NCBI GenBank assembly: GCA_900765165.1
Contig: CAAFQR010000110.1
Location: 6,776-70,775 of the forward strand
Direction of reading: 5' to 3'
DNA length: 64,000 nucleotides
From: Veillonellaceae bacterium
GTDB lineage: Bacteria > Bacillota > Negativicutes > Veillonellales > Veillonellaceae
Part shown: positions 2,425-53,045 of the stretch, in pieces
Numbering within the stretch: the first letter of the stretch is position 1
How the letters are laid out: each line of letters opens with the position of its first letter
Program-made: the position numbers and the translations under genes
The notes under the pieces: generated by a model
Told to the model about the DNA's origin: nothing
What the model saw: only the letters and a program-made list of their open reading frames with translations
Databases searched by the model: none

Positions 2425-4362
2425 ATGTCTGAGGAAACAAAAGCAGTAAAAATGCAAGACACAGCGATGGATCCACACCGAGAGTATGTGGAAATTAACA
2501 GTTACGTTATCTTTTGGGGTTTATTCTTTGCAGCGTTATTCGCGTTAGCAGTAGGGTACTTGTGCTTGAAAATCGGGCAAACTGTCGATGCCTTTGCACC
2601 GGTATCCGTTTTAGCCATGGGTATGGCTATCATGTTCAAGCGTGCCAATGCGTTCCCGGAAACGGTACACATTCAGGCAATCGCTAGCTCCGGTACGAAC
2701 GTGCTCGCAGGGGCTATGTTCTTCTTGCCGGCGTTGTATATTTTAAATATGCCGAACATCTCGATTTTGCAGATGATTGTGCCGGTCGTATTGGGCGGCG
2801 TGTTAGGCGTATTCTTGTCCGTTATGTTCCGCCGTTATTTCTGTGAAGAAATGGATGGCGTGTATCCGTTCCCGTCCGGTCGTGCTGCAGCAGAAGTATT
2901 GAGCAGTGCCGGCGGTAACAAAGCGAAGCTCATGGTTATTTCCGGTACCGTTGGTGCCGCTTTCGACTTCGTGTTGAATACCTTGGGCTGGTGGAGTGAA
3001 AGCTTGAACGCGCACTCCTTCGCATGGGGCCGTTTGTTGGAAGAAAAATTCAAGATCACCTTTGGTCTTGACAGTGATGCGGCATTGCTCGGTATCGGTT
3101 ACTTCACCGGTCTTCGCTATGCAGCCATCATCTGCGGCGGTTCGTTCTTTGCTTGGTTCGTGTGCATGCCGACCATTTACTTCTTAGGTGGCGACCATGA
3201 AATGATCGTTAAAGGACAGACGGTGTTGTTGGCGAATGCACCGATGAGTGCTGTATTTACGCAGTATGTGCGTCATATCGGTATTGGTATGCTCGCTATG
3301 GCCGGTATTATCGGCTTGCTCACTATGTCCGGCGTTGTTAAAAACGTTGTAGTTAATGCCATTCGTGACATTTTCTCTAGCAACAAAACAACGGCTAGCG
3401 TAACGTTGCTCCGTACGCAGCGCGACATTCCGATGTCCGTATTGGCTGTTGGTATTTTGGTAACCGTTTTACTTTTCGGTGCGTACTTCCATTATTTCTT
3501 CGCATCGACGTGGACGCAGACCATCATTGCTTTCATCATGGTAATGGTGTTTGCATTCCTTTTATCCGTAGTTGGTATTAGCTCCATTGCCTTCACCGGT
3601 AATGAACCGGTTTCGGGCATGACAATCTTCATGCTTATCGTGTCTGCCGTTGTTTTATCTTCGGTAGGCATGGGCGGCGACATTGGGGTTATGGCAATCT
3701 TGATGATGGCATCCTTCATTGGTACCACCATCGGCGTAGCCGGTAACTTCATGTCTGAATTGAAGGTAGCTCACGTATTGGGCGCTACGCCGAAAAAAAT
3801 GCAGCAGTGGCAGATTGTTGGCTGTATCGTATCCGGCGTTGTATCCATTGGCGTATTGCTCTTGTTAAATCAAGCATACGGCTTCACCGGTCCTGATGCG
3901 TTACAGGCACCGCAGGCTAATGCGATGGCTGCTATTGCTCAGCCGTTGATGGCTGGTGGCAGTGCGCCGTGGCCGCTTTACATGGCTGGCGCGTTCTTCG
4001 CTATCGTATTGTGGATGATTGGCGTTCCGCCGTTGGCTTTCGCCTTAGGTACGTACTTGCCGATGGACATCAACTTACCGGTATTGGTAGGTGGCTTCTT
4101 GTCCTGGCTCGTATCCAGCCGCAGCAAGGATGAAAAATTAAATGCGTTGCGCTTAAGCGAAGGTAGTACCGTTGCTTCCGGTTTCGTAGCCGGTGGCGCT
4201 ATTGGTAGCTTGTTCAGCGCTGTGCTTCACATTGCCGGTGTTGACGTATTTGCCGAAGCTTGGAACAAAACGCAGGGTAGCTTGTTGTTAGGCGTATTAA
4301 CCTACTTAGGCTTGTGCGCGATGATCTATTTTATTGCTATGAAGATTAAAACTTCTAAGTAA
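2425..4362 (+). CDS. OPT-family oligopeptide transporter (paralog 1)
   Basis: 645-aa polytopic membrane protein, very similar to the next gene (about 80% identity by eye). OPT family signature regions present; RBS GGAGG. Confidence 0.8.
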   Translation: MSEETKAVKMQDTAMDPHREYVEINSYVIFWGLFFAALFALAVGYLCLKIGQTVDAFAPVSVLAMGMAIMFKRANAFPETVHIQAIASSGTNVLAGAMFFLPALYILNMPNISILQMIVPVVLGGVLGVFLSVMFRRYFCEEMDGVYPFPSGRAAAEVLSSAGGNKAKLMVISGTVGAAFDFVLNTLGWWSESLNAHSFAWGRLLEEKFKITFGLDSDAALLGIGYFTGLRYAAIICGGSFFAWFVCMPTIYFLGGDHEMIVKGQTVLLANAPMSAVFTQYVRHIGIGMLAMAGIIGLLTMSGVVKNVVVNAIRDIFSSNKTTASVTLLRTQRDIPMSVLAVGILVTVLLFGAYFHYFFASTWTQTIIAFIMVMVFAFLLSVVGISSIAFTGNEPVSGMTIFMLIVSAVVLSSVGMGGDIGVMAILMMASFIGTTIGVAGNFMSELKVAHVLGATPKKMQQWQIVGCIVSGVVSIGVLLLLNQAYGFTGPDALQAPQANAMAAIAQPLMAGGSAPWPLYMAGAFFAIVLWMIGVPPLAFALGTYLPMDINLPVLVGGFLSWLVSSRSKDEKLNALRLSEGSTVASGFVAGGAIGSLFSAVLHIAGVDVFAEAWNKTQGSLLLGVLTYLGLCAMIYFIAMKIKTSK

Positions 4363-4643: not shown

Positions 4644-6581
4644 ATGTCTGAAGAATCAAAAGCAGTCAACAACCATGGCAATGTCATGGATCCACACCGT
4701 GAGTATGTGGAAATTAACAGTTATGTTATCTTTTGGGGCTTGTTTTTTGCGTCGCTTTTCTCGCTAGCCATTGGCTATCTCGGTTTGAAAATTGGGCAAA
4801 CCGTCGATGCCTTTGCACCGGTATCGGTGCTGGCTATGGGGATGGCCATCCTCTTTAAGCGCGCTAATGCATTTCCGGAAACGGTGCATATCCAGGCTAT
4901 CGCCGCTTCCAGTACCAACGTATTGCCTGGTGTTATCTTCTTCTTACCGGCGCTGTATATTTTAAATATGCCGGAAATGTCATTTTTACAGATGTTGATA
5001 CCTATCGTCGTCGGTGGTATTTTAGGCGTATCCTTGTCGGTTATGTTCCGTCGGTATTTCGTAGACGAAATGGATGCAGTATATCCATTCCCGGCGGGTC
5101 GTGCCGGCGCGGAAGTATTGAGTAGCTCTAGCGGTAGCAAGGCGAAGCTGATGGTTATCTCCGGTACCATTGGGGCGGCCTTCGACTTTGTGCTGAACAC
5201 CTTGGGGTGGTGGAGCGAACATCTCAATAGTAATGCCTTTGCTTTAGGGCGCATGGTAGAAGAGAAGTTCAAGCTTACATTCCGCTTAGATAGCGACGTA
5301 GCGTTGTTGGGGATTGGTTATTTCACCGGCCTTCGCTACGCAGCCATTATCTGCGGCGGTTCGTTCTTTGCTTGGTATGTGTGCATGCCAACGATTTATT
5401 ACCTCGCCGGTAGCCACATGATGGTTGTGGACGGCCAGACCATTGCTTTAGCCGATGCTCCGCTAAGCGCTGTATTCTCGCAATATGTGCGCCACATCGG
5501 TATTGGCATGTTGGCCATGGCAGGTATTATCGGTATGCTTACTATGTCCGGCGTTGTGAAAAAAATCATGACCAACGCCATTCGCGATATTTTCTCGAAG
5601 AATAAGAAAACCGCAACGGTTACGTTGCTTCGTACGCAGCGCGACATTCCGGTGTCCGTATTGGCTATTACTATTATCGTAGCGATTATACTCTTTACGA
5701 TTTACTTCCATGTGTTCTATTCAGCTACGTGGGTACATACCTTACTTGCCTTTGTGTTGGTATTGGTATTCTCGTTCTTGTTATCCATTGTAGGTATTAG
5801 TTCCTTGGCCTATACGGGCAATGAACCGGTTTCGGGCATGACCATTTTCATGCTTATCGTATCGTCTGTTGTATTGTCGTCAGCCGGTATGGGCGGCGAT
5901 CTTGGTATTATGGCGGTGCTCTTGATGGCAGCCTTTATTGGGACTACCGTAAGCTGTGCCGGTAACTTTATGTCGGAACAGAAGGTGTGCTACCTGTTGG
6001 GCGCTACACCGAAGAAAATGCAACAATGGCAGCTTTTGGGCGTTATCGTATCGGCCATCGTGTCCATTGGCGTTATGATTCTGTTAAATAAGGCATATGG
6101 CTTCACCGGCCCTACAGCTTTACAGGCACCGCAGGCTAACGCCATGGCCGCTATCGCACAGCCGTTAATGGCCGGTGGTAGTGCACCGTGGCCGCTCTAC
6201 ATGGCAGGCGCTTTCTTTGCCGTTGTATTGTGGATGATTGGCGTACCGCCGTTGGCCTTTGCCTTGGGCACTTATTTGCCAATCGACATTAACATGCCGG
6301 TATTAGTAGGTGGCTTCCTATCCTGGCTCGTATCCAGTCGCAGCAAAGACGAAAAACTTAACCAGCTTCGCTTAAGCGAAGGTAGCACTGTTGCCTCCGG
6401 TTTCGTTGCCGGCGGCGCTATCGGCAGCTTAGCCAGTGCTGTACTGCACATCGGTGGCGTTGATTGGTTCGCTGATGCGTGGAACAAAACCCAAGGCAGC
6501 TTGCTGTTGGGCGTTGTTATGTATCTGGTAATGTGCGCTGTTATATATGTAGCGGCGATGAAGATTAAGAGCGCTAAATAG
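4644..6581 (+). CDS. OPT-family oligopeptide transporter (paralog 2, tandem duplicate)
   Basis: 645 aa, collinear with the 2425..4362 product along its whole length. RBS AGGAGG. Confidence 0.8.
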   Translation: MSEESKAVNNHGNVMDPHREYVEINSYVIFWGLFFASLFSLAIGYLGLKIGQTVDAFAPVSVLAMGMAILFKRANAFPETVHIQAIAASSTNVLPGVIFFLPALYILNMPEMSFLQMLIPIVVGGILGVSLSVMFRRYFVDEMDAVYPFPAGRAGAEVLSSSSGSKAKLMVISGTIGAAFDFVLNTLGWWSEHLNSNAFALGRMVEEKFKLTFRLDSDVALLGIGYFTGLRYAAIICGGSFFAWYVCMPTIYYLAGSHMMVVDGQTIALADAPLSAVFSQYVRHIGIGMLAMAGIIGMLTMSGVVKKIMTNAIRDIFSKNKKTATVTLLRTQRDIPVSVLAITIIVAIILFTIYFHVFYSATWVHTLLAFVLVLVFSFLLSIVGISSLAYTGNEPVSGMTIFMLIVSSVVLSSAGMGGDLGIMAVLLMAAFIGTTVSCAGNFMSEQKVCYLLGATPKKMQQWQLLGVIVSAIVSIGVMILLNKAYGFTGPTALQAPQANAMAAIAQPLMAGGSAPWPLYMAGAFFAVVLWMIGVPPLAFALGTYLPIDINMPVLVGGFLSWLVSSRSKDEKLNQLRLSEGSTVASGFVAGGAIGSLASAVLHIGGVDWFADAWNKTQGSLLLGVVMYLVMCAVIYVAAMKIKSAK

Positions 6582-6588
6582 TGCTGGC

Positions 6589-6912
6589 TTTTCCGAGGCG
6601 TATAGTGCCTTGGTGTAAGAGCTGAAAAACGGCACCCCATTGGACTTTCTATAAAGTCGTGGGGTGCCATCTTTTTGCGTGCTTTTAGAAAACATGAGTA
6701 AAGGGTTCTGTTAACGCAGGTCAAAGCCTTCTGTTTCACAAATGGCTGTTGCCCTCGCGTTAACAGAACCCTTTTTGACTCTTGTGTAAGCCAAAGCCAA
6801 CGCAAAAAAGATGGCACCTTCCTTAATAGAAATCGGCTAGGGTGCCGTTCTTTCAGCTGCGTTACACAAGATCGACAGCGCTGTTCGGAAAAGCCAGGCA
6901 CTATTTTAGCGG
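6589..6912. repeat. Nested-palindrome element, copy A: three concentric inverted repeats around a ~40-nt apical loop
   Basis: Core stem 6703-6717 (GGGTTCTGTTAACGC) pairs with 6757-6771 (GCGTTAACAGAACCC). The next layer pairs 6663-6680 (GGTGCCATCTTTTTGCGT) with ~6806-6826 (ACGCAAAAAAGATGGCACC). The outer layer pairs 6589-6650 with 6840-6912. Confidence 0.7.
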
Positions 6913-6974
6913 TTGGGGGGGGGCGGAATTTAGAGCAGCGGCGCTATCGGTGGACTTGTTTTTTGCACCAATAC

Positions 6975-7215
6975 TTCGAGCAATTTATGCTTATGTAAGT
7001 AAAGACCTCTGTTAACGTAGGTCAAAGTCTACGGCTACGCCAATGACTATTGCCCTCGCGTTAACAGAGGTCTTTTTACTTTTCGTGCATCATAAAGCCT
7101 CACTCGAAGATGTTGGTACCGTAGCAAAGCCGTTAGCTGTAGGGACCGCTTTTATTGAAGCTGCGTTACACAAGATCGACAGCGCCGTTCGGAAAAGCCA
7201 GGCACTATTTTAGCG
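6975..7215. repeat. Nested-palindrome element, copy B (same orientation as A)
   Basis: Core stem 7013-7027 (AGACCTCTGTTAACG) pairs with 7069-7083 (CGTTAACAGAGGTCT). The loop AGGTCAAAGTCTACGGCTACGCCAATGACTATTGCCCT is conserved with copies C and D. The right flank 7158-7215 is a direct repeat of 6857-6912. Confidence 0.7.
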
Positions 7216-7374
7216 GCTTAGGGGGAGAAGAGCGGAATTTAGAGTATCGACGTTCTCCCCAACCCCATTGTCCCTTGCGAGAAAGTATCTAAGCAGTAAA
7301 TCGGACGAGCCTCCGAGCAAAGTAAGTCTGGCTTACGTGCTAAGCCGTAAAGGATGTGTAAATGGCTTGGGAAG

Positions 7375-7650
7375 GCAAGAACGATCTTGTGTAACGTAGG
7401 CGCAAAAGGACTGTCCGTAAATATAAAGGGGCAGCACTGGTATTTGTCACTTCGAGGAGACGATAAAGGAGCGGTAACGTTAAAAAGGGTTCTGCATGCG
7501 CAAGGTCAACAGTCATTGGCGAAGCCGTAGACTTTGACCTGCGCATGCAGAACCCTTTATTAGTGACGTAGAGAATACTCGAAGTGACAATACCAAAGGT
7601 GTATTTTATTTTATATTCGGACAGCCCTTTTTCGCCTCTTACCGAGTCGT
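7375..7650. repeat. Nested-palindrome element, copy C (inverted orientation)
   Basis: Core stem 7487-7501 (GGGTTCTGCATGCGC) pairs with 7541-7555. Outer inverted repeats are GTCACTTCGAG/CTCGAAGTGAC and GCGCAAAAGGACTGTCCG/CGGACAGCCCTTTTTCGC. The loop is the reverse complement of the A/B loop. Confidence 0.7.
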
Positions 7651-7694
7651 GCTAGGCTAACCCCAGCCATGAAACACCGGAACGGACTGAGCCG

Positions 7695-8252
7695 TTAAGC
7701 CAGCCGCTTTGCCCCGAGGCTCAACGCATTTACGATAGATACTTCCGCAAGCGACAACACTATTATCATTAAGAAATCCGCCGGAATGTCAAATGCAAAG
7801 GCCACTTGGAAGATGTGTAACAGCGGCACTGTTTCATTCAAGTACAGCGCCAAGATGGCGACTTTATAGCTTAAGCCAAACACATAGGTGATGACAATAC
7901 CTAAGCAGTTAAGCCAGAAATAACCCTTTCTGGTATGAACGTCGTATTTTGATTTCACATAGGCTAACACACCGGCTGTAGCGATAAAACCAACGAGATA
8001 ACCAAAGGTCGGGCGCACAACATAGCCGAAGCCGCCGCCACCGGCGAACACAGGAATGCCGATGAGACCCATGAGCACATACGTCGCTACTGCACCGGCT
8101 GCGTAACGAACCGGCAACAAAACGCCACACAGCAATACGAACGTGAACTGTAACGTGTAATAATCGAAGTAGGGCAGTGGAATCTGAATGCGAGCCCCAA
8201 CAGCAATCAACGCAATGAGTAATGCAGCACGAAACAACAATCTAGTTTTCAT
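7695..8252 (-). CDS. bioY: Biotin transporter BioY (ECF-transporter S component)
   Basis: 185-aa protein with 5-6 TM segments. Family signature present (GARIQIPLP...TLQ...GGGFGY...PTFGYL). Confidence 0.8.
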   Translation of the reverse strand: MKTRLLFRAALLIALIAVGARIQIPLPYFDYYTLQFTFVLLCGVLLPVRYAAGAVATYVLMGLIGIPVFAGGGGFGYVVRPTFGYLVGFIATAGVLAYVKSKYDVHTRKGYFWLNCLGIVITYVFGLSYKVAILALYLNETVPLLHIFQVAFAFDIPADFLMIIVLSLAEVSIVNALSLGAKRLA

Positions 8253-8304
8253 AATAAAACCCTCCTCTTAAATACCTGCCTTCAGTATAGAAAAGGAAAA
8301 ACTG

Positions 8305-8338
8305 TTTGTCAACCAACTAAAATAGTATGGTTTACATA
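8305..8338. promoter_or_regulatory. Candidate BirA operator upstream of bioY
   Basis: TGTCAACC-N14-GGTTTACA at 8307-8336 matches the bipartite BirA box (TGTAAACC-N14/15-GGTTTACA) with one mismatch. It lies 55 nt upstream of the bioY start on the promoter side. Confidence 0.5.
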
Positions 8339-8520
8339 TAAAACGGGCACATGGAGGAGGACCCAAATGTCGGCGCGTCCTATTACATGTAGTCACACCA
8401 TTGCGAAACGCACTAAATTCCCCATTCTTCCCACCTAAGGATTCTTACGCAGAAAAGCGACTATGGCCGAGTATCAAAGTAAGACTTGCTAGAATGGCCC
8501 GGTATAATTTTCGGGACAGC

Positions 8521-8800
8521 AAAAACGATCTTGTGTAACGTAGCCGATAAAAAGGTGGTCCTCAGCGGGAACGTTGGGGCGGAGGTAGCGTTCACTTAGC
8601 GGAGGCGCTGAGAAAGTAACAATGTAAAAAAGGAGTCTGTCGACGCAAGGGCAACAGTCATTGGCGTAGCCGTAGACTTTGACCTGCGTTGACAGACTCC
8701 TTTACTTGTAATTTCCAGAACACGCTAAGTGACGCTACCAAACGTCTTTTAACGATAGCGATAGGACCACCTTTTTACGGCTCTTCACAAGAAGCCGTTG
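8521..8800. repeat. Nested-palindrome element, copy D (inverted orientation)
   Basis: Core stem 8632-8646 pairs with 8686-8700 (GGAGTCTGTCGACGC / GCGTTGACAGACTCC, one G-U/A-C position). Outer inverted repeats are GTTCACTTAGCG/CGCTAAGTGAC and AAAAAGGTGGTCC/GGACCACCTTTTT. The 5' flank ACGATCTTGTGTAACGTAG is shared with copy C. Confidence 0.7.
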
Positions 8801-8835
8801 AGAGCCCGAAAATTAACCGAGCCTAACTAAAAGGA

Positions 8836-9762
8836 TTACATGATCAAGGCCATAATCGCTTTCTGCGTATGCAACCGGTTCTCTGCTTCATCAAAGATCA
8901 CATTCGCATTGAGTTCAAATACTTCATTGGTAATTTCTTCTTCTCTGTGTGCCGGCAAGCAGTGCATTACGATAGCATCCTTAGCTGCTACGTCTAAGAG
9001 CTCGCGGTTAACCTGGTAACCGTTGAAGATGGAAAGACGTTTTTCGTATTCTGCTTCCTGGCCCATGCTGGCATATACGTCGGTATAGAAGATATCGGCG
9101 TCCTTAGCAGCGGCTAAGGGGTCGTGGGTGATGGTAATGGAACCACCGGTTTCCTCTGCATCTTCCTTGGCTAACGCTACGATACCGGCATTCGGTTCGA
9201 AGCCTTTCGGCCCGGCGAAGACGAAGTGCATGCCCATTTTAGCGCAAGCGAACATCAACGAATGCGCCATGTTATTGCCGTCGCCGACGAAGGTCATTTT
9301 ACAGCCTTTCAAATCATTGCCTTTATATTCCGTGGCGGTGAAAATATCCGTCATGGCCTGACACGGATGGAGCAGGTCAGTTAAGGCATTGATAACGGGA
9401 ATGTCCGCATATTCGGCGAATTCCGTAACGTTGGAGTGTGCAAAGGTACGGATCATAATACCGTCTACGTAGCGCGACAATACGCGGGCCGTATCTTTGA
9501 TTGGTTCACCACGGCCAATTTGTAAATCGCGATTGGAAAGGAAGAGACCCTGGCCGCCCAATTGATAAATACCGGTTTCGAAGGAAACGCGGGTACGGGT
9601 AGAGGATTTTTCGAAAATCATGCCTAATGTTTTACCGGCCAACAGCTGATGAGGAATACCGTGCTTTTGTTTATATTTTAACTCTTTGGTGAGTGCCAAT
9701 ACTTCCTCGACTTCCGCTACGGACAGATCGTGTATTGAAATAAAATCGTCACCTTTTTGCAT
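8836..9762 (-). CDS. argF: Ornithine carbamoyltransferase
   Basis: STRTR and HCLP motifs typical of OTCase. Start chosen at the internal ATG (MQKGDDFISIHDLS), which is preceded by AAGGAG. The ORF track's longer start at 9822 has no RBS. Confidence 0.85.
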   Translation of the reverse strand: MQKGDDFISIHDLSVAEVEEVLALTKELKYKQKHGIPHQLLAGKTLGMIFEKSSTRTRVSFETGIYQLGGQGLFLSNRDLQIGRGEPIKDTARVLSRYVDGIMIRTFAHSNVTEFAEYADIPVINALTDLLHPCQAMTDIFTATEYKGNDLKGCKMTFVGDGNNMAHSLMFACAKMGMHFVFAGPKGFEPNAGIVALAKEDAEETGGSITITHDPLAAAKDADIFYTDVYASMGQEAEYEKRLSIFNGYQVNRELLDVAAKDAIVMHCLPAHREEEITNEVFELNANVIFDEAENRLHTQKAIMALIM

Positions 9763-11223: not shown

Positions 11224-12240
11224 TTAGTGGTTAATTTCAGTACCGATACCGTTATCGGTGAAGAGTTCGAGGATGATGGCGTGCGGTTCGCAACCATTGA
11301 TGATGCTAACTTTGCCAGCGCCGGTTTTCAATGCATGTAAGGAAGCTTCCACCTTCGGAATCATGCCGCCGCTAATCTGGCCTTTGTTAATCATGCCAGC
11401 AGCTTCATAGCCGCTCAAGGAGCTTAAGAACGTGGACGGATCTTCGAATACCTTGTAAACGCCTTTGGTGTTCGTTAAGAGGATAAGCTTCGTAGCTTTC
11501 AAAGCGCCGGCGATTTCAGCGGCTGCATAGTCAGCGTTGATGTTGTACGTGCTTTCGCCCTTGCCAGTGCCGATAGGGGAGATAACCGGTACATAGCCGT
11601 TGTCCAAGAGGTCGTTGATGATCTTGGTATTAACTTTCTGAACTTCGCCAACGAAGCCGATGTCTACTAAGTGGCTGTGGCCGTTATCTTCGTGAATTTC
11701 AGCCAATTTCTTCGTAGCCCAGAGGAGGTTAGCGTCTTTACCGCTAAGGCCTACAGCGGGGATGCCCAACTTGTTGAGGCGGTTAACGATTTCAGAGTTC
11801 AATTTGCCAACCAATACCATTTCAGCGATGGTTACCGTTTCCTGGTCCGTTACGCGAAGGCCGCTAACGAAGGTGGATTCTTTGCCGAATTTTTGAAGGA
11901 AATCAGTGATGTCAGGGCCGCCGCCATGTACGATAACCGGGCGGATACCGATACATTTCATGAGGGCGATGTCCTGCATAACCTGAGTTTTCAATTCGTC
12001 GTTGATCATAGCGTTGCCGCCGTATTTGATAACGATGGTTTTGCCGGCGAATTTCTGGATATACGGTAAGGCTTCAACTAAAACGGAAGCTTTTACATTC
12101 GGATCGAAGTGATCGGTCGGTAAACCGAATTCCGGTTCGATTTCCGGAGCTACCGTCGGGTTTGCCGGATTCTTTTTATCAGTCGTTTCGTTTACAGTCG
12201 TTACATTATGGAGATTTAATTCAGTTATCATGAGTCTCAT
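11224..12240 (-). CDS. argB: Acetylglutamate kinase, with an unusual ~45-aa N-terminal extension
   Basis: Conserved core begins at ...ASVLVEALPYIQKFAGKTIVIKYGGNAM. No alternative in-frame start lies nearer the core (codon 49 is GTA). The second ATG at 12231 has a better-spaced RBS. Confidence 0.8.
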   Translation of the reverse strand: MRLMITELNLHNVTTVNETTDKKNPANPTVAPEIEPEFGLPTDHFDPNVKASVLVEALPYIQKFAGKTIVIKYGGNAMINDELKTQVMQDIALMKCIGIRPVIVHGGGPDITDFLQKFGKESTFVSGLRVTDQETVTIAEMVLVGKLNSEIVNRLNKLGIPAVGLSGKDANLLWATKKLAEIHEDNGHSHLVDIGFVGEVQKVNTKIINDLLDNGYVPVISPIGTGKGESTYNINADYAAAEIAGALKATKLILLTNTKGVYKVFEDPSTFLSSLSGYEAAGMINKGQISGGMIPKVEASLHALKTGAGKVSIINGCEPHAIILELFTDNGIGTEINH

Positions 12241-25830: not shown

Positions 25831-25928
25831 CGAAAAAATTTTTGAGTAATCATAAAAAATGCTTGCCAAGGGTTCTAAATTATGATATATTATAAAAGTA
25901 CCTGATGTGACAACATCAAGTGCTTGCG

Positions 25929-26003
25929 GCCCCGTGGTGTAGCGGTTAACATGTCGCCCTGTCACGGCGAAGATCGTCAGTTCAAATCTGATCGGGGTCG
26001 CCA
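25929..26003 (+). tRNA. tRNA-Asp (anticodon GTC)
   Basis: Hand-folded cloverleaf. Acceptor GGCCCCG / CGGGGTC (one G-U), anticodon stem TCGCC/GGCGA, loop CTGTCAC, T-loop TTCAAAT, CCA encoded. Confidence 0.8.
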
Positions 26004-26026
26004 TTTTTTTTATTCAATTAAATTTG

Positions 26027-26102
26027 CCTCGGTAGCTCAGTCGGTAGAGCAATGGACTGAAAATCCATGTGTCGACAGTTCGATTCTGTCCTGAGGCACC
26101 AT
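26027..26102 (+). tRNA. tRNA-Phe (anticodon GAA)
   Basis: GCCTCGGTAGCTCAGTCGGTAGAGC... Anticodon stem ATGGA/TCCAT, loop CTGAAAA, T-loop TTCGATT, CCA encoded. Confidence 0.85.
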
Positions 26103-26116
26103 ATTGATACACACAT

Positions 26117-26203
26117 GCGGTTGTGGTGGAAAGGCAGACACGCCATCTTGAGGGGGTGGTGAGCTTACGCTCGTATGGGTTCAAGTCCCATCAACCGCAC
26201 CAT
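26117..26203 (+). tRNA. tRNA-Leu (anticodon GAG), long variable arm
   Basis: Acceptor GCGGTTG/CAACCGC, 3-bp D-stem, anticodon stem CCATC/GGTGG with loop TTGAGGG (G37), variable stem-loop GAGC-TTAC-GCTC, T-arm ATGGG-TTCAAGT-CCCAT, CCA encoded. Confidence 0.75.
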
Positions 26204-52894: not shown

Positions 52895-53045
52895 AATATA
52901 AAAAAGCGACGACTGCGGTTTTCCGAGTCGTCGTATAAGTCACGTGTTATCTCTCGGTAAGTACCGCAGGATTTAGCACCATCGTATGGTTGCCGGATTT
53001 CATTGGGCCAGTCCCTCCATCACTCTCGATAAGTTCTTTATGGAA
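52895..53045 (-). promoter_or_regulatory. SAM-I (S-box) riboswitch with intrinsic terminator, controlling metQ
   Basis: Minus-strand sequence AAGAACTTATCGAGAGTGATGGAGGGACTGGCCCAATGAAATCCGGCAACC...GGTGCTAAATCCTGCGG matches S-box conserved blocks. Terminator GACGACTCGG-AAAA-CCGCAGTCGTCGCTTTTTT on the minus strand at 52898-52935. Confidence 0.75.

What the first reader, a model, noticed from the sequence alone, without database searches (positions are those of the whole stretch)
6589..8800. Four copies of a ~250-320-bp nested-palindrome element with covarying stems and a conserved 40-nt loop
Four intergenic elements flank bioY: A and B on one strand, C and D inverted. Each has a 15-bp core stem around the same ~40-nt loop, AGGTCAAAGTCTACGGCTNCGCCAATGACTRTTGMCCT. 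The stem sequences differ between copies (GGGTTCTGTTAACGC, AGACCTCTGTTAACG, GGGTTCTGCATGCGC, GGAGTCTGTCAACGC) but are compensated on the opposite arm every time. That is selection on structure rather than sequence, and it argues against recently transposed MITE copies. Each core is wrapped in one or two further layers of inverted repeats (CACTTCGAG/CTCGAAGTG or CACTTAGCG/CGCTAAGTG, then GGACTGTCCG/CGGACAGCC or GGTGGTCC/GGACCACC). Flank modules (GCTGCGTTACACAAGATCGACAGCGC...GCCAGGCACTATTTTAGCGG) recur in direct and inverted orientation. No ORF of any length spans these segments, so this is either a structured ncRNA family (possibly cis-regulatory or sRNA paralogs) or a protein-recognised hairpin family of the REP/BIME or Correia type. 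Neither class matches by eye.
Basis: seen in the sequence. Interest (0 to 1): 0.78.

Follow-up and report, generated by a model that had tools for sequence, protein, structure and literature searches.

The report
Fold-back terminator-like repeats flanking bioY
Four related 300-490-base DNA palindromes sit just after the stop codons of three genes in an uncultured gut Veillonella; they look like oversized transcription terminators whose two arms are kept matched at least partly by DNA copying, so they are unusual but probably not a new RNA gene.

Summary
Four homologous elements (A, B on +; C, D on -) each fold into one long imperfect hairpin. Across six sequence variants (four here, two alleles from other strains), 34 of 71 pairs changed on both sides and 94% of cells stay paired (0/500 shuffles).

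- The palindromes are larger than reported (A 6576-6906, C 7268-7757, D 8439-8876).
- In C and D the 3' arm holds an inverted copy of the native last 63 nt of bioY and about 35 nt of argF. That is a DNA-level inverted duplication.
- The stems are almost purely Watson-Crick (376 WC, 8 G.T, 6 A.C), and the antisense strand folds equally well, so there is no RNA-strand signature.
- Alleles are mosaics of paralogues, which indicates gene conversion.
- One common allele has lost half of D.

Core and outer stems follow the local intrinsic-terminator pattern. All copies lie in sense orientation after a stop codon, with T5-6 after the core stem.

I found no match in Rfam, plasmids or phages, no further copy in the window or in related Veillonella loci, and no real match in the three public collections scanned by exact pattern. 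No TSD or transposase was found.

Best reading: locus-restricted fold-back repeats acting as compound terminators, maintained by template switching and gene conversion. The conserved asymmetric apex is unexplained.

The parts
6576..6906 (+). Element A, whole palindrome. It starts at the last codons and stop of the OPT gene (stop 6579-6581). The conserved unit is 6610-6874 and the core hairpin is 6700-6774.
   Evidence: Self inverted match 6576-6906, 72% over 349 nt. Arm alignment. Fold of -170 kcal/mol as a single hairpin.
6907..6950 (+). G-rich 'tail' after A (GGTTGGGGGGGGGCGGAATTTAGAGCAGCGGCGC). It doubles as the start of B's 5' arm. The G-tract length is polymorphic between strains.
   Evidence: Direct repeat D6, 6923-6948 / 7232-7257. 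Tail also present after A2 and D. G8AGG/G9/G10AGG variants.
6924..7215 (+). Element B, a tandem copy of A with a period of about 304 nt. The conserved unit is 6924-7178, the core hairpin is 7001-7075, and the 3' module runs to 7215. Its outer pairing is poorer than in A.
   Evidence: Direct repeats D2 and D3 (74 nt, 91%). nhmmer E=1e-84. Fold of -116 kcal/mol.
7216..7257 (+). Tail after B (GGCTTAGGGGGAGAAGAGCGGAATTTAGAGTATCGACG). The break between strain types 1 and 2 lies at its end (7254).
7268..7335 (-). Distal 3' arm of C. It is an inverted copy of the last 63 nt of the bioY coding sequence (7695-7757).
   Evidence: Local alignment score 47, against shuffle mean 12.7 and maximum 21 (0/1000). 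The BioY C-terminal region (AEVxIVNAL) is shared with relatives, which have no element copy, so the CDS is the source.
7268..7757 (-). Element C, whole palindrome, directly after and overlapping the 3' end of bioY (stop 7695-7697). The conserved unit is 7382-7646 and the core hairpin is 7484-7558.
   Evidence: Self inverted match 7268-7757. Folds as a single 490-nt hairpin, DNA parameters -132.6 kcal/mol, z -14.5.
8444..8480 (-). Distal 3' arm of D. It is an inverted copy of the last ~35 nt of argF (8836-8871).
   Evidence: Score 34 against shuffle maximum 28 (0/1000). The argF C-terminus matches relatives.
8439..8876 (-). Element D, whole palindrome, directly after and overlapping the 3' end of argF (stop 8836-8838) and upstream of the bioY promoter. 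The conserved unit is 8526-8791 and the core hairpin is 8629-8703.
   Evidence: Arm alignment; inverted pair I19. Folds as a single 438-nt hairpin, RNA parameters -206.6 kcal/mol, z -15.9.
8395..8438 (-). Tail after D (TTAGGTGGGAAGAATGGGGAATTTAGTGCG), homologous to the tails of A and B.
   Evidence: Inverted pair I14, 7223-7242 / 8413-8432. Alignment.
7695..8252 (-). bioY (context gene flanked by D and C). It has its own promoter and a BirA-type operator at about 8284-8340, so D is not its leader.
   Evidence: Pfam BioY. Promoter TTGACA-17-TATACT at 8312-8284. Operator conserved in relatives.

Best explanation
These are a locus-restricted family of long fold-back (imperfect palindrome) repeats that arose in one uncultured gut Veillonella species.

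Anatomy. Each copy is a nest of terminator-type hairpins. An outer stem is flanked by A5/T5. A core stem of 17-19 bp has A3 before it and T5-6 after it. The ordinary 2-4-nt loop is replaced by a conserved ~55-nt asymmetric apical hairpin.

Position. Each copy sits in sense orientation directly after a stop codon (OPT, bioY, argF; B follows A). It most likely works as a strong compound intrinsic terminator or insulator for that gene.

How the arms stay matched (inferred). Perfect pairing despite 49-76% identity between copies is produced largely at the DNA level. Intramolecular template switching, or fold-back copying, writes one arm from the other. This has extended the stems outward by copying the upstream coding sequence in inverted form. 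Gene conversion between the neighbouring paralogues moves both arms together. Selection for terminator strength probably adds to this.

Shown: the anatomy, the covariation, the mirrored coding ends, the allele mosaicism, and the absence of the elements from relatives.
Inferred: the termination function and the template-switch mechanism.
For: Structure
- Single long hairpins with z-scores of -14.5 and -15.9.
- 34 of 71 pairs changed on both sides; 0/500 shuffles reach the observed values.
- Helices are 376 WC, 8 G.T, 6 A.C, and sense and antisense strands fold equally well.

DNA-level copying
- Inverted copies of the native bioY and argF 3' coding ends lie in the 3' arms (0/1000 shuffles each).
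- The matching C-termini are shared with Veillonella relatives.
- Those relatives lack the elements and have only 70-210 nt between argF and bioY.
- The conserved tail lies distal to the mirrored segment. So the mirrored DNA was added at the base of an existing hairpin.
- Allele C2 is 87-97% D-like inside and C-like outside.
- Template switching is a published mechanism for creating and maintaining hairpin stems (PMC8794818, found).

Terminator reading
- Ordinary terminators in the window are perfect 14-19-bp stems of the form AAAGG...CCTTT with tiny loops. The core and outer stems of the elements follow the same pattern.
- T5-6 follows the core stem and only A3-4 precedes it in all six variants (sequences printed; the automatic count misread B, whose sequence shows T5).
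- All four copies are in sense orientation just after a stop codon or after another copy.
- Unrelated nested long hairpins occur at gene ends in relatives.
Against: - Termination was not measured.
- The apex keeps the same bulges, a 3x3 internal loop and the same tip in both apex types, although three of its pairs are swapped. Frequent arm-to-arm copying should erase such asymmetry. The short-A / long-T asymmetry at the core base is also conserved. Some selection on a specific structure is therefore likely and is not explained by this model.
- Unit length is held at 255-269 nt.
- Helices alternate with internal loops at the same positions in all copies, as in functional RNAs.
- A terminator does not need 300-490 nt.
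- The D2 allele shows that at least D is dispensable. That weakens any functional claim, including termination.
- Genome-wide copy number is unknown.
Confidence: 0.5

Rival explanations
1. A mobile or formerly mobile fold-back element (MITE-, REP- or PATE-like). Its asymmetric apex or conserved ends (GTRAAGAGC ... CTRCGTTACACAAGATCG) would be recognised, as a DNA hairpin, by a transposase or recombinase encoded elsewhere. It would insert preferentially at gene 3' ends or terminators.
For: - Four paralogous copies at three different gene ends that are element-free in the nearest relatives.
- Conserved ends and apex with variable middles.
- Conserved bulges resemble the extrahelical bases used by hairpin-binding enzymes (own knowledge of IS608 TnpA and IntI/attC).
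- The strain-variable cargo lies between inverted copies C2 and A2.
Against: - No target-site duplication.
- No insertion polymorphism: every strain read has the same sites occupied, and the only variants are deletions.
- No further copy in the 64-kb window, in ~13 kb of flanks or in relatives' bioY loci (1.38 Mb searched in all).
- No match in plasmids or phages.
- No real match in the GTDB genome collection, JGI metagenomes or viral contigs when scanned with exact patterns.
- No transposase or integrase in the window.
- Copies are only 49-76% identical.
Confidence: 0.17
2. A structured RNA family expressed as the 3' UTR of the upstream gene, or as a 3'-UTR-derived RNA. The conserved apex would bind a protein or carry a specific function beyond termination, such as mRNA stabilisation, RNase III processing or regulator recruitment.
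For: - Strong covariation with helices and internal loops at conserved positions.
- Sense orientation after genes in all copies.
- Conserved asymmetric apex with three compensated pairs between the two apex types.
- Conserved unit length.
- Terminator stems with conserved tips are known to hide functional RNAs (PMC8632094).
Against: - No Rfam match, even at E<=10, other than generic long-hairpin miRNA models.
- No G.U excess over A.C (8 against 6), and G.U pairs are only 2% of cells.
- The antisense strand folds as well.
- The family is confined to one locus of one species in all data reachable.
- D2 strains lack half of D.
- C and A have no downstream gene in the same orientation to regulate, and D is separated from bioY by bioY's own promoter and operator.
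Confidence: 0.18
3. Functionless by-product. The palindromes would be neutral debris of repeated local rearrangement (tandem and inverted duplications, deletions) at a recombination-prone junction between convergent operons.
For: - The locus is highly variable between strains: a cargo swap, the D2 deletion, the L010 deletion and a G-tract polymorphism.
- Mirrored coding ends.
- The elements are absent from relatives, which do without them.
Against: - Near-perfect Watson-Crick helices persist in copies that are only about 50-60% identical.
- The T-tract asymmetry and unit length are conserved.
- The apex is 90-100% conserved.

Neutral debris should decay into mismatched arms unless arm-to-arm copying is very frequent.
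Confidence: 0.12

Closest known systems
Rho-independent (intrinsic) transcription terminators, including bidirectional ones
   Same: - GC-rich perfect stem followed by a T-tract.
- A-tract on the 5' side.
- Position just after stop codons, in sense orientation.
- Same stem pattern (AAAGG-N12-15) as the ordinary terminators of this genome.
   Different: - Total size is 300-490 nt instead of 30-50.
- Two to three nested stem layers.
- The loop is replaced by a conserved 55-nt asymmetric hairpin.
- The copies are homologous to each other.
- The arms reach into the coding sequence.
ERIC/IRU and other long imperfect-palindrome intergenic repeats (Correia/NEMIS, RUP, BOX, RPE, Nezha); comparison from own knowledge
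   Same: - Non-coding imperfect palindromes in transcribed intergenic regions or 3' UTRs.
- They fold as long hairpins.
- They can act as terminators or RNA-processing sites.
   Different: - No sequence homology.
- 2-4 times longer.
- Not dispersed in the 77 kb examined.
- No TSD or TA target.
- Copies are strongly diverged but compensated, whereas those families are sequence-conserved.
- Known from a single species and a single locus.
Template-switch mutations / quasipalindrome correction (Ripley model; Monttinen and Loytynoja, PMC8794818)
   Same: - Inverted copying of nearby sequence creates and lengthens perfect stems in one step.
- It yields 'compensatory' changes without selection.
- The mirrored bioY and argF ends fit this mechanism exactly.
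   Different: - Described events are mostly short, of a few to tens of nt.
- Here the stems total about 150-240 bp and the family is paralogous.
- The mechanism is inferred here, not observed.
Integron attC sites
   Same: - Structure conserved rather than sequence.
- Extrahelical bases.
- Placed directly after an ORF, in a fixed orientation.
   Different: - No RYYYAAC/GTTRRRY boxes at the stem base.
- 265-490 nt, against 57-141 nt for attC.
- No intI or attI.
- The flanked genes are core genes syntenic with relatives (argF-bioY), not cassettes.
REP/BIME with RAYT; IS200/IS605 end hairpins (PATE)
   Same: Hairpin DNA with conserved bulges that could be read by a Y1/HUH enzyme.
   Different: - REP elements are 20-40 nt and present in hundreds of copies.
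- No RAYT or TnpA in the window.
- No dispersed copies in the 77 kb examined.

Membership tests
Intrinsic terminator | GC-rich stem immediately followed by a U/T-tract on the transcribed strand | tested here: met
   Core stems of 17-19 bp at 95-100% complementarity. T5-6 directly after the stem in all six variants (sequences). Outer stems are followed by T4-5 in C, D and C2.
Intrinsic terminator | Short hairpin with a small loop (3-8 nt) | tested here: not met
   The 'loop' is 37-41 nt and itself structured. The terminator scan, which requires a loop of 3-8 nt, found 0 sites.
Intrinsic terminator | Located downstream of a stop codon in sense orientation | tested here: met
   A follows the OPT stop (6579-6581), C follows the bioY stop (7695-7697), D follows the argF stop (8836-8838), and B follows A.
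Intrinsic terminator | Transcripts actually end there | not testable with these tools
   No RNA-seq or Term-seq data available.
MITE | Target-site duplication flanking the element | tested here: not met
   Direct-repeat test of gene end against the post-element region is at chance level for A, C and D.
MITE | Many dispersed, similar copies in the genome | tested here: inconclusive
   No other copy in the 64-kb window, in ~13 kb of flanks or in 1.27 Mb from relatives. The rest of this genome could not be reached.
MITE | Parent IS or transposase with matching inverted repeats | tested here: inconclusive
   No transposase or integrase among the genes of the window and flanks. Genome-wide status unknown.
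REP/BIME-RAYT | 20-40-nt palindromes in high copy number with a RAYT gene | tested here: not met
   Units are 255-269 nt. There are four copies in one cluster only, and no Y1 transposase in the window.
Integron attC | R''/R' core sites (RYYYAAC ... GTTRRRY), 57-141 nt, intI nearby | tested here: not met
   The stem base reads TTGGTGTAAGAGC ... GCTRCGTTACACAAG. The size is 265-490 nt. No integrase in the window.
Curated structured RNA (Rfam 15) | Match to a covariance model at gathering score | tested here: not met
   Only sub-threshold hits to generic miRNA-precursor hairpin models.
Structured ncRNA (generic) | Covariation supporting a conserved secondary structure | tested here: met
   The sample is only six related sequences, and DNA-level copying gives the same signal.
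Structured ncRNA (generic) | Strand-specific signal (G.U tolerated, A.C not; sense strand folds better) | tested here: not met
   G.T 8 against A.C 6. The antisense MFE is equal or lower in 5 of 6 variants.
Invertible DNA switch (inverton) | Both orientations of the segment between the inverted repeats occur in a population | tested here: not met
   All copies in the roughly 25 strain loci read have the same apex orientation.
Retron msr/msd | Adjacent reverse transcriptase gene | tested here: not met
   No RT among the neighbouring genes.

The most novel reading that the evidence does not exclude
The ~55-nt asymmetric apex, with conserved bulges, a 3x3 internal loop and compensated pairs between its two types, could be the recognition site of an unknown hairpin-binding protein. 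The elements would then be a new kind of fold-back element, or a new 3'-UTR RNA module. It would seed itself at gene ends and then grow by copying the adjacent coding sequence into its own stem.
Probability: 0.15. Interest if true: 0.7.

Novelty: new variant of a known kind. Interest (0 to 1): 0.4.

Why it matters
If the best reading holds, this is a clean natural example in bacteria of template switching and gene conversion producing textbook 'compensatory covariation'. That includes stems extended by copying protein-coding sequence. It is therefore a warning for covariation-based ncRNA discovery. It is also a useful locus for studying how terminator hairpins grow into long palindromes and how bacteria tolerate them. 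The elements break metagenome assemblies at this locus. If instead the apex proves to be a specific protein or RNA module, it would define a new element class, though so far one confined to a single uncultured species.

Tried and rejected
- **Rfam.** Searched at gathering score and at E<=10. Found nothing except generic hairpin miRNA models.
- **Public collection scans.** The apex pattern gave 0 hits in genome contigs, viral contigs and metagenome contigs. The flank pattern gave 0 hits in viral contigs and 10 chance hits in metagenomes, none of them an element by nhmmer.
- **blastn against plasmids and phages.** No match.
- **Protein-database trick with ORFs read across the elements.** No candidates.
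- **Sister species.** None exist between 80% and 99% BioY identity. The organism is known only as 'Veillonella sp.' MAGs.
- **More strains via BioY allele look-ups.** These returned only the same haplotypes.
- **Walking beyond the window.** Limited to about 10 kb by the tool rules.
- **Ideas rejected:**
  - A direct duplication of gene ends (a DUP-INV-DUP structure): not significant.
  - An ISL3-like 'GGCTCTT' end: inconsistent between copies.
  - A link between the BirA half-site-like TGTYAAC in the core stems and biotin control: wrong spacing, and absent in C.
  - An ssDNA promoter or sso origin: no plasmid or ICE context.
  - A riboswitch-like terminator-embedded aptamer: no downstream gene under its control.
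Full report
**What is there**

The region 6576-8876 holds four homologous non-coding elements: A and B on the + strand, C and D on the - strand.
- The apex pattern occurs 3 times against 0.00 expected.
- The 15-mer CGTTACACAAGATCG occurs 4 times against 0.08 expected.
- Neither occurs anywhere else in the 64-kb window. An nhmmer profile of the copies also finds no further copy in the window.

Three corrections matter.
1. The '40-nt loop' is itself a hairpin ending in a 3-nt tip. It has a 3x3 internal loop and conserved bulges. Copy A carries a second apex type that differs at about 10 positions, three of them compensated pairs.
2. Each element is one continuous imperfect hairpin.
3. The palindromes are larger than reported: A 6576-6906, C 7268-7757, D 8439-8876. 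D folds as a single 438-nt hairpin (-206.6 kcal/mol, z -15.9) and C as a single 490-nt hairpin (z -14.5).

All reading frames are full of stops.

**Organism and relatives**

The BioY and MenC proteins are exact matches to proteins of uncultured 'Veillonella sp.' MAGs. The locus is on several hundred human-gut metagenome contigs. The nearest sequenced species are Veillonella sp. R32, V. intestinalis, V. ratti and V. seminalis, with BioY 76-80% identical.
- They keep the argF-bioY synteny but have only 70-210 nt between the two genes.
- In V. ratti the BirA operator follows the argF stop almost directly.
- nhmmer and an 84-nt covariance model of the core plus apex find no copy in 80 related bioY loci, in the rest of the window, or in the ~13 kb of flanks I could reach. 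That is 1.38 Mb in all.
- Rfam, plasmids and phages give no match. Exact-pattern scans of GTDB genomes, JGI metagenomes and viral contigs give only ten chance hits.

The species itself appears to be absent or masked in the genome collection, so its genome-wide copy number is unknown.

**Covariation is real**

Other strains supply two more full-length variants: C2 after bioY and A2 after OPT. They lie at the same sites as C and A. The adjacent coding sequence is nearly identical between strains (bioY and its upstream region 98-100%), but the elements are only about 63-70% identical.

The six units are 255-269 nt long and 49-76% identical. RNAalifold predicts 71 pairs, of which 34 have changes on both sides.
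- 94.1% of cells are paired, against 80.1% in shuffles.
- All five measures are 0/500.
- Slid controls give 35-47% paired.

**It does not look like RNA-specific selection**

- In the main helices there are 376 Watson-Crick cells, 8 G.T, 6 A.C and 15 other mismatches. Wobble pairs are rare and no more common than the antisense-strand wobble.
- The antisense strand folds as well as or better than the sense strand in five of six variants.
- The distal 3' arm of C (7268-7335) is an inverted copy of the last 63 nt of the bioY coding sequence. The distal 3' arm of D (8444-8480) is an inverted copy of the last ~35 nt of argF. Each is 0/1000 in shuffles.
- Those C-termini are native, because they match the proteins of the element-free relatives. 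Part of each stem was therefore made by inverted copying of local DNA.
- The conserved G-rich tail lies distal to the mirrored segment in D and A. So the mirrored DNA was added at the base of a pre-existing hairpin. This is what a replication template switch or fold-back priming event produces (mechanism described in PMC8794818).
- No direct duplication or TSD accompanies it.

**Paralogues exchange sequence**

- C2 is 87-97% identical to D through the middle stem, core and apex, but is C-like at its outer stem and flank.
- A2 combines an A-type apex with stems resembling those of B and C.
- Conversion tracts that carry both arms preserve pairing automatically.

The locus is also structurally unstable.
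- Type-2 strains carry a 4.3-kb lacI-Nramp-DHDPS cargo in place of B.
- The D2 allele, seen in four of the strains read, has lost the 3' half of D between two CGGCTACG microhomologies.
- One strain has lost A, B and the end of OPT.
- A G-tract in A's tail varies in length.

No strain has an empty site, and apex orientation never varies.

**What they probably do**

Ordinary terminators in this window are perfect 14-19-bp stems of the form AAAGG-N-CCTTT with 2-4-nt loops and a T-run on the side of the upstream gene. The core stems (for example AAAGGAGTCTGTCAACGCA...) and the outer stems (AAAAAGGTGGTCC...GGACCACCTTTTT) obey the same pattern.

In all six variants the core is preceded by only A3-4 but followed by T5-6 (sequences). 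That is an orientation-specific feature. Every copy is oriented so that transcription from the upstream gene meets this T-tract. bioY has its own promoter and BirA-type operator between D and its start codon, so D is not a bioY leader. Relatives carry unrelated nested long hairpins at gene ends, so oversized terminator hairpins seem to be a habit of this clade.

I therefore read the elements as compound, sense-oriented intrinsic terminators or insulators built on a fold-back repeat. Confidence is 0.5, and the function is inferred.

**What remains odd**

- The apex keeps identical asymmetric features in both of its types.
- The short-A / long-T asymmetry and the unit length are conserved.
- Helices and internal loops sit at the same positions in every copy.

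Frequent arm-to-arm copying alone should erase asymmetry. Some constraint on a specific structure, such as a protein site on DNA or RNA, is therefore not excluded.

The rivals are a hairpin-recognised mobile element (0.17), a 3'-UTR structured RNA (0.18) and neutral rearrangement debris (0.12).

**Comparison and verdict**

The elements work most like intrinsic terminators and resemble ERIC- or Correia-type palindromic intergenic repeats. They fail the membership tests for MITE (no TSD, no dispersed copies seen), REP/RAYT, attC, retron, inverton and every Rfam family.

I class them as a new variant of a known kind. The 'selection on RNA structure' reading is only partly supported. Interest is moderate (0.4), mainly as a natural case where DNA-level copying mimics RNA covariation and lengthens stems with coding sequence.

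Noticed in passing
window 8284-8340 (- strand): bioY has its own sigma-70-like promoter (TTGACA-17-TATACT). It overlaps a BirA-type operator, TGTAAACC-N14-GGTTGACA, that is conserved upstream of bioY in Veillonella relatives.
   Followed up: partly
window 6915-6923; L003, L004, L107 equivalents: The homopolymeric G-tract in the tail after element A varies between strains (G8AGG, G9, G10AGG).
   Followed up: partly
L001 10997-15170 (also L002, L006, L008, L108), replacing window 6950-7254: A strain-variable 4.3-kb cargo (LacI-family regulator, Nramp transporter, DHDPS-family enzyme) takes the place of copy B. It lies between A's tail and the mirrored bioY end, flanked by the inverted copies C2 and A2.
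   Followed up: partly
L006, L007, L010 9568-9756; L107 3559-3771: Allele D2: the whole 3' half of element D is deleted between two 8-nt CGGCTACG microhomologies, one in the apex and one in the 3' flank motif.
   Followed up: yes
L010 11056-11159; L009 about 11934-12035: One strain has lost about 700 nt: most of B, all of A and the last 81 nt of the first OPT gene. Another has a 211-nt deletion inside the same OPT gene. The first OPT paralogue seems dispensable.
   Followed up: no
L114 1014-6497 (would lie near window 28.9 kb): One strain carries an island between yebC and the eut-operon permease. It encodes a tyrosine integrase, a PemK-like toxin, an S24/HTH repressor, and a PAPS-reductase/DUF3440 plus ParB_N pair. 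The window lacks it.
   Followed up: no
L011 10672-10776; L017 16305-16450: Unrelated nested long hairpins lie at gene ends in Veillonella sp. R32 and V. absiana. One has 20-nt perfect arms around an inner hairpin. The other has 19-nt arms enclosing 24-nt arms.
   Followed up: partly
L109, L111, L112, L113: Many short metagenome contigs end within 0-150 nt after bioY. Assemblies break at element C, probably because of the shared apex and the palindrome.
   Followed up: no
window 2425-4362 and 4644-6581: Two tandem OPT-family transporter genes of equal length (645 aa), about 77% identical in DNA.
   Followed up: no
window 52944-53035 (-); 25928-26199 (+): A SAM (S-box) riboswitch and a cluster of three tRNA genes are the only Rfam matches in the window.
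   Followed up: no
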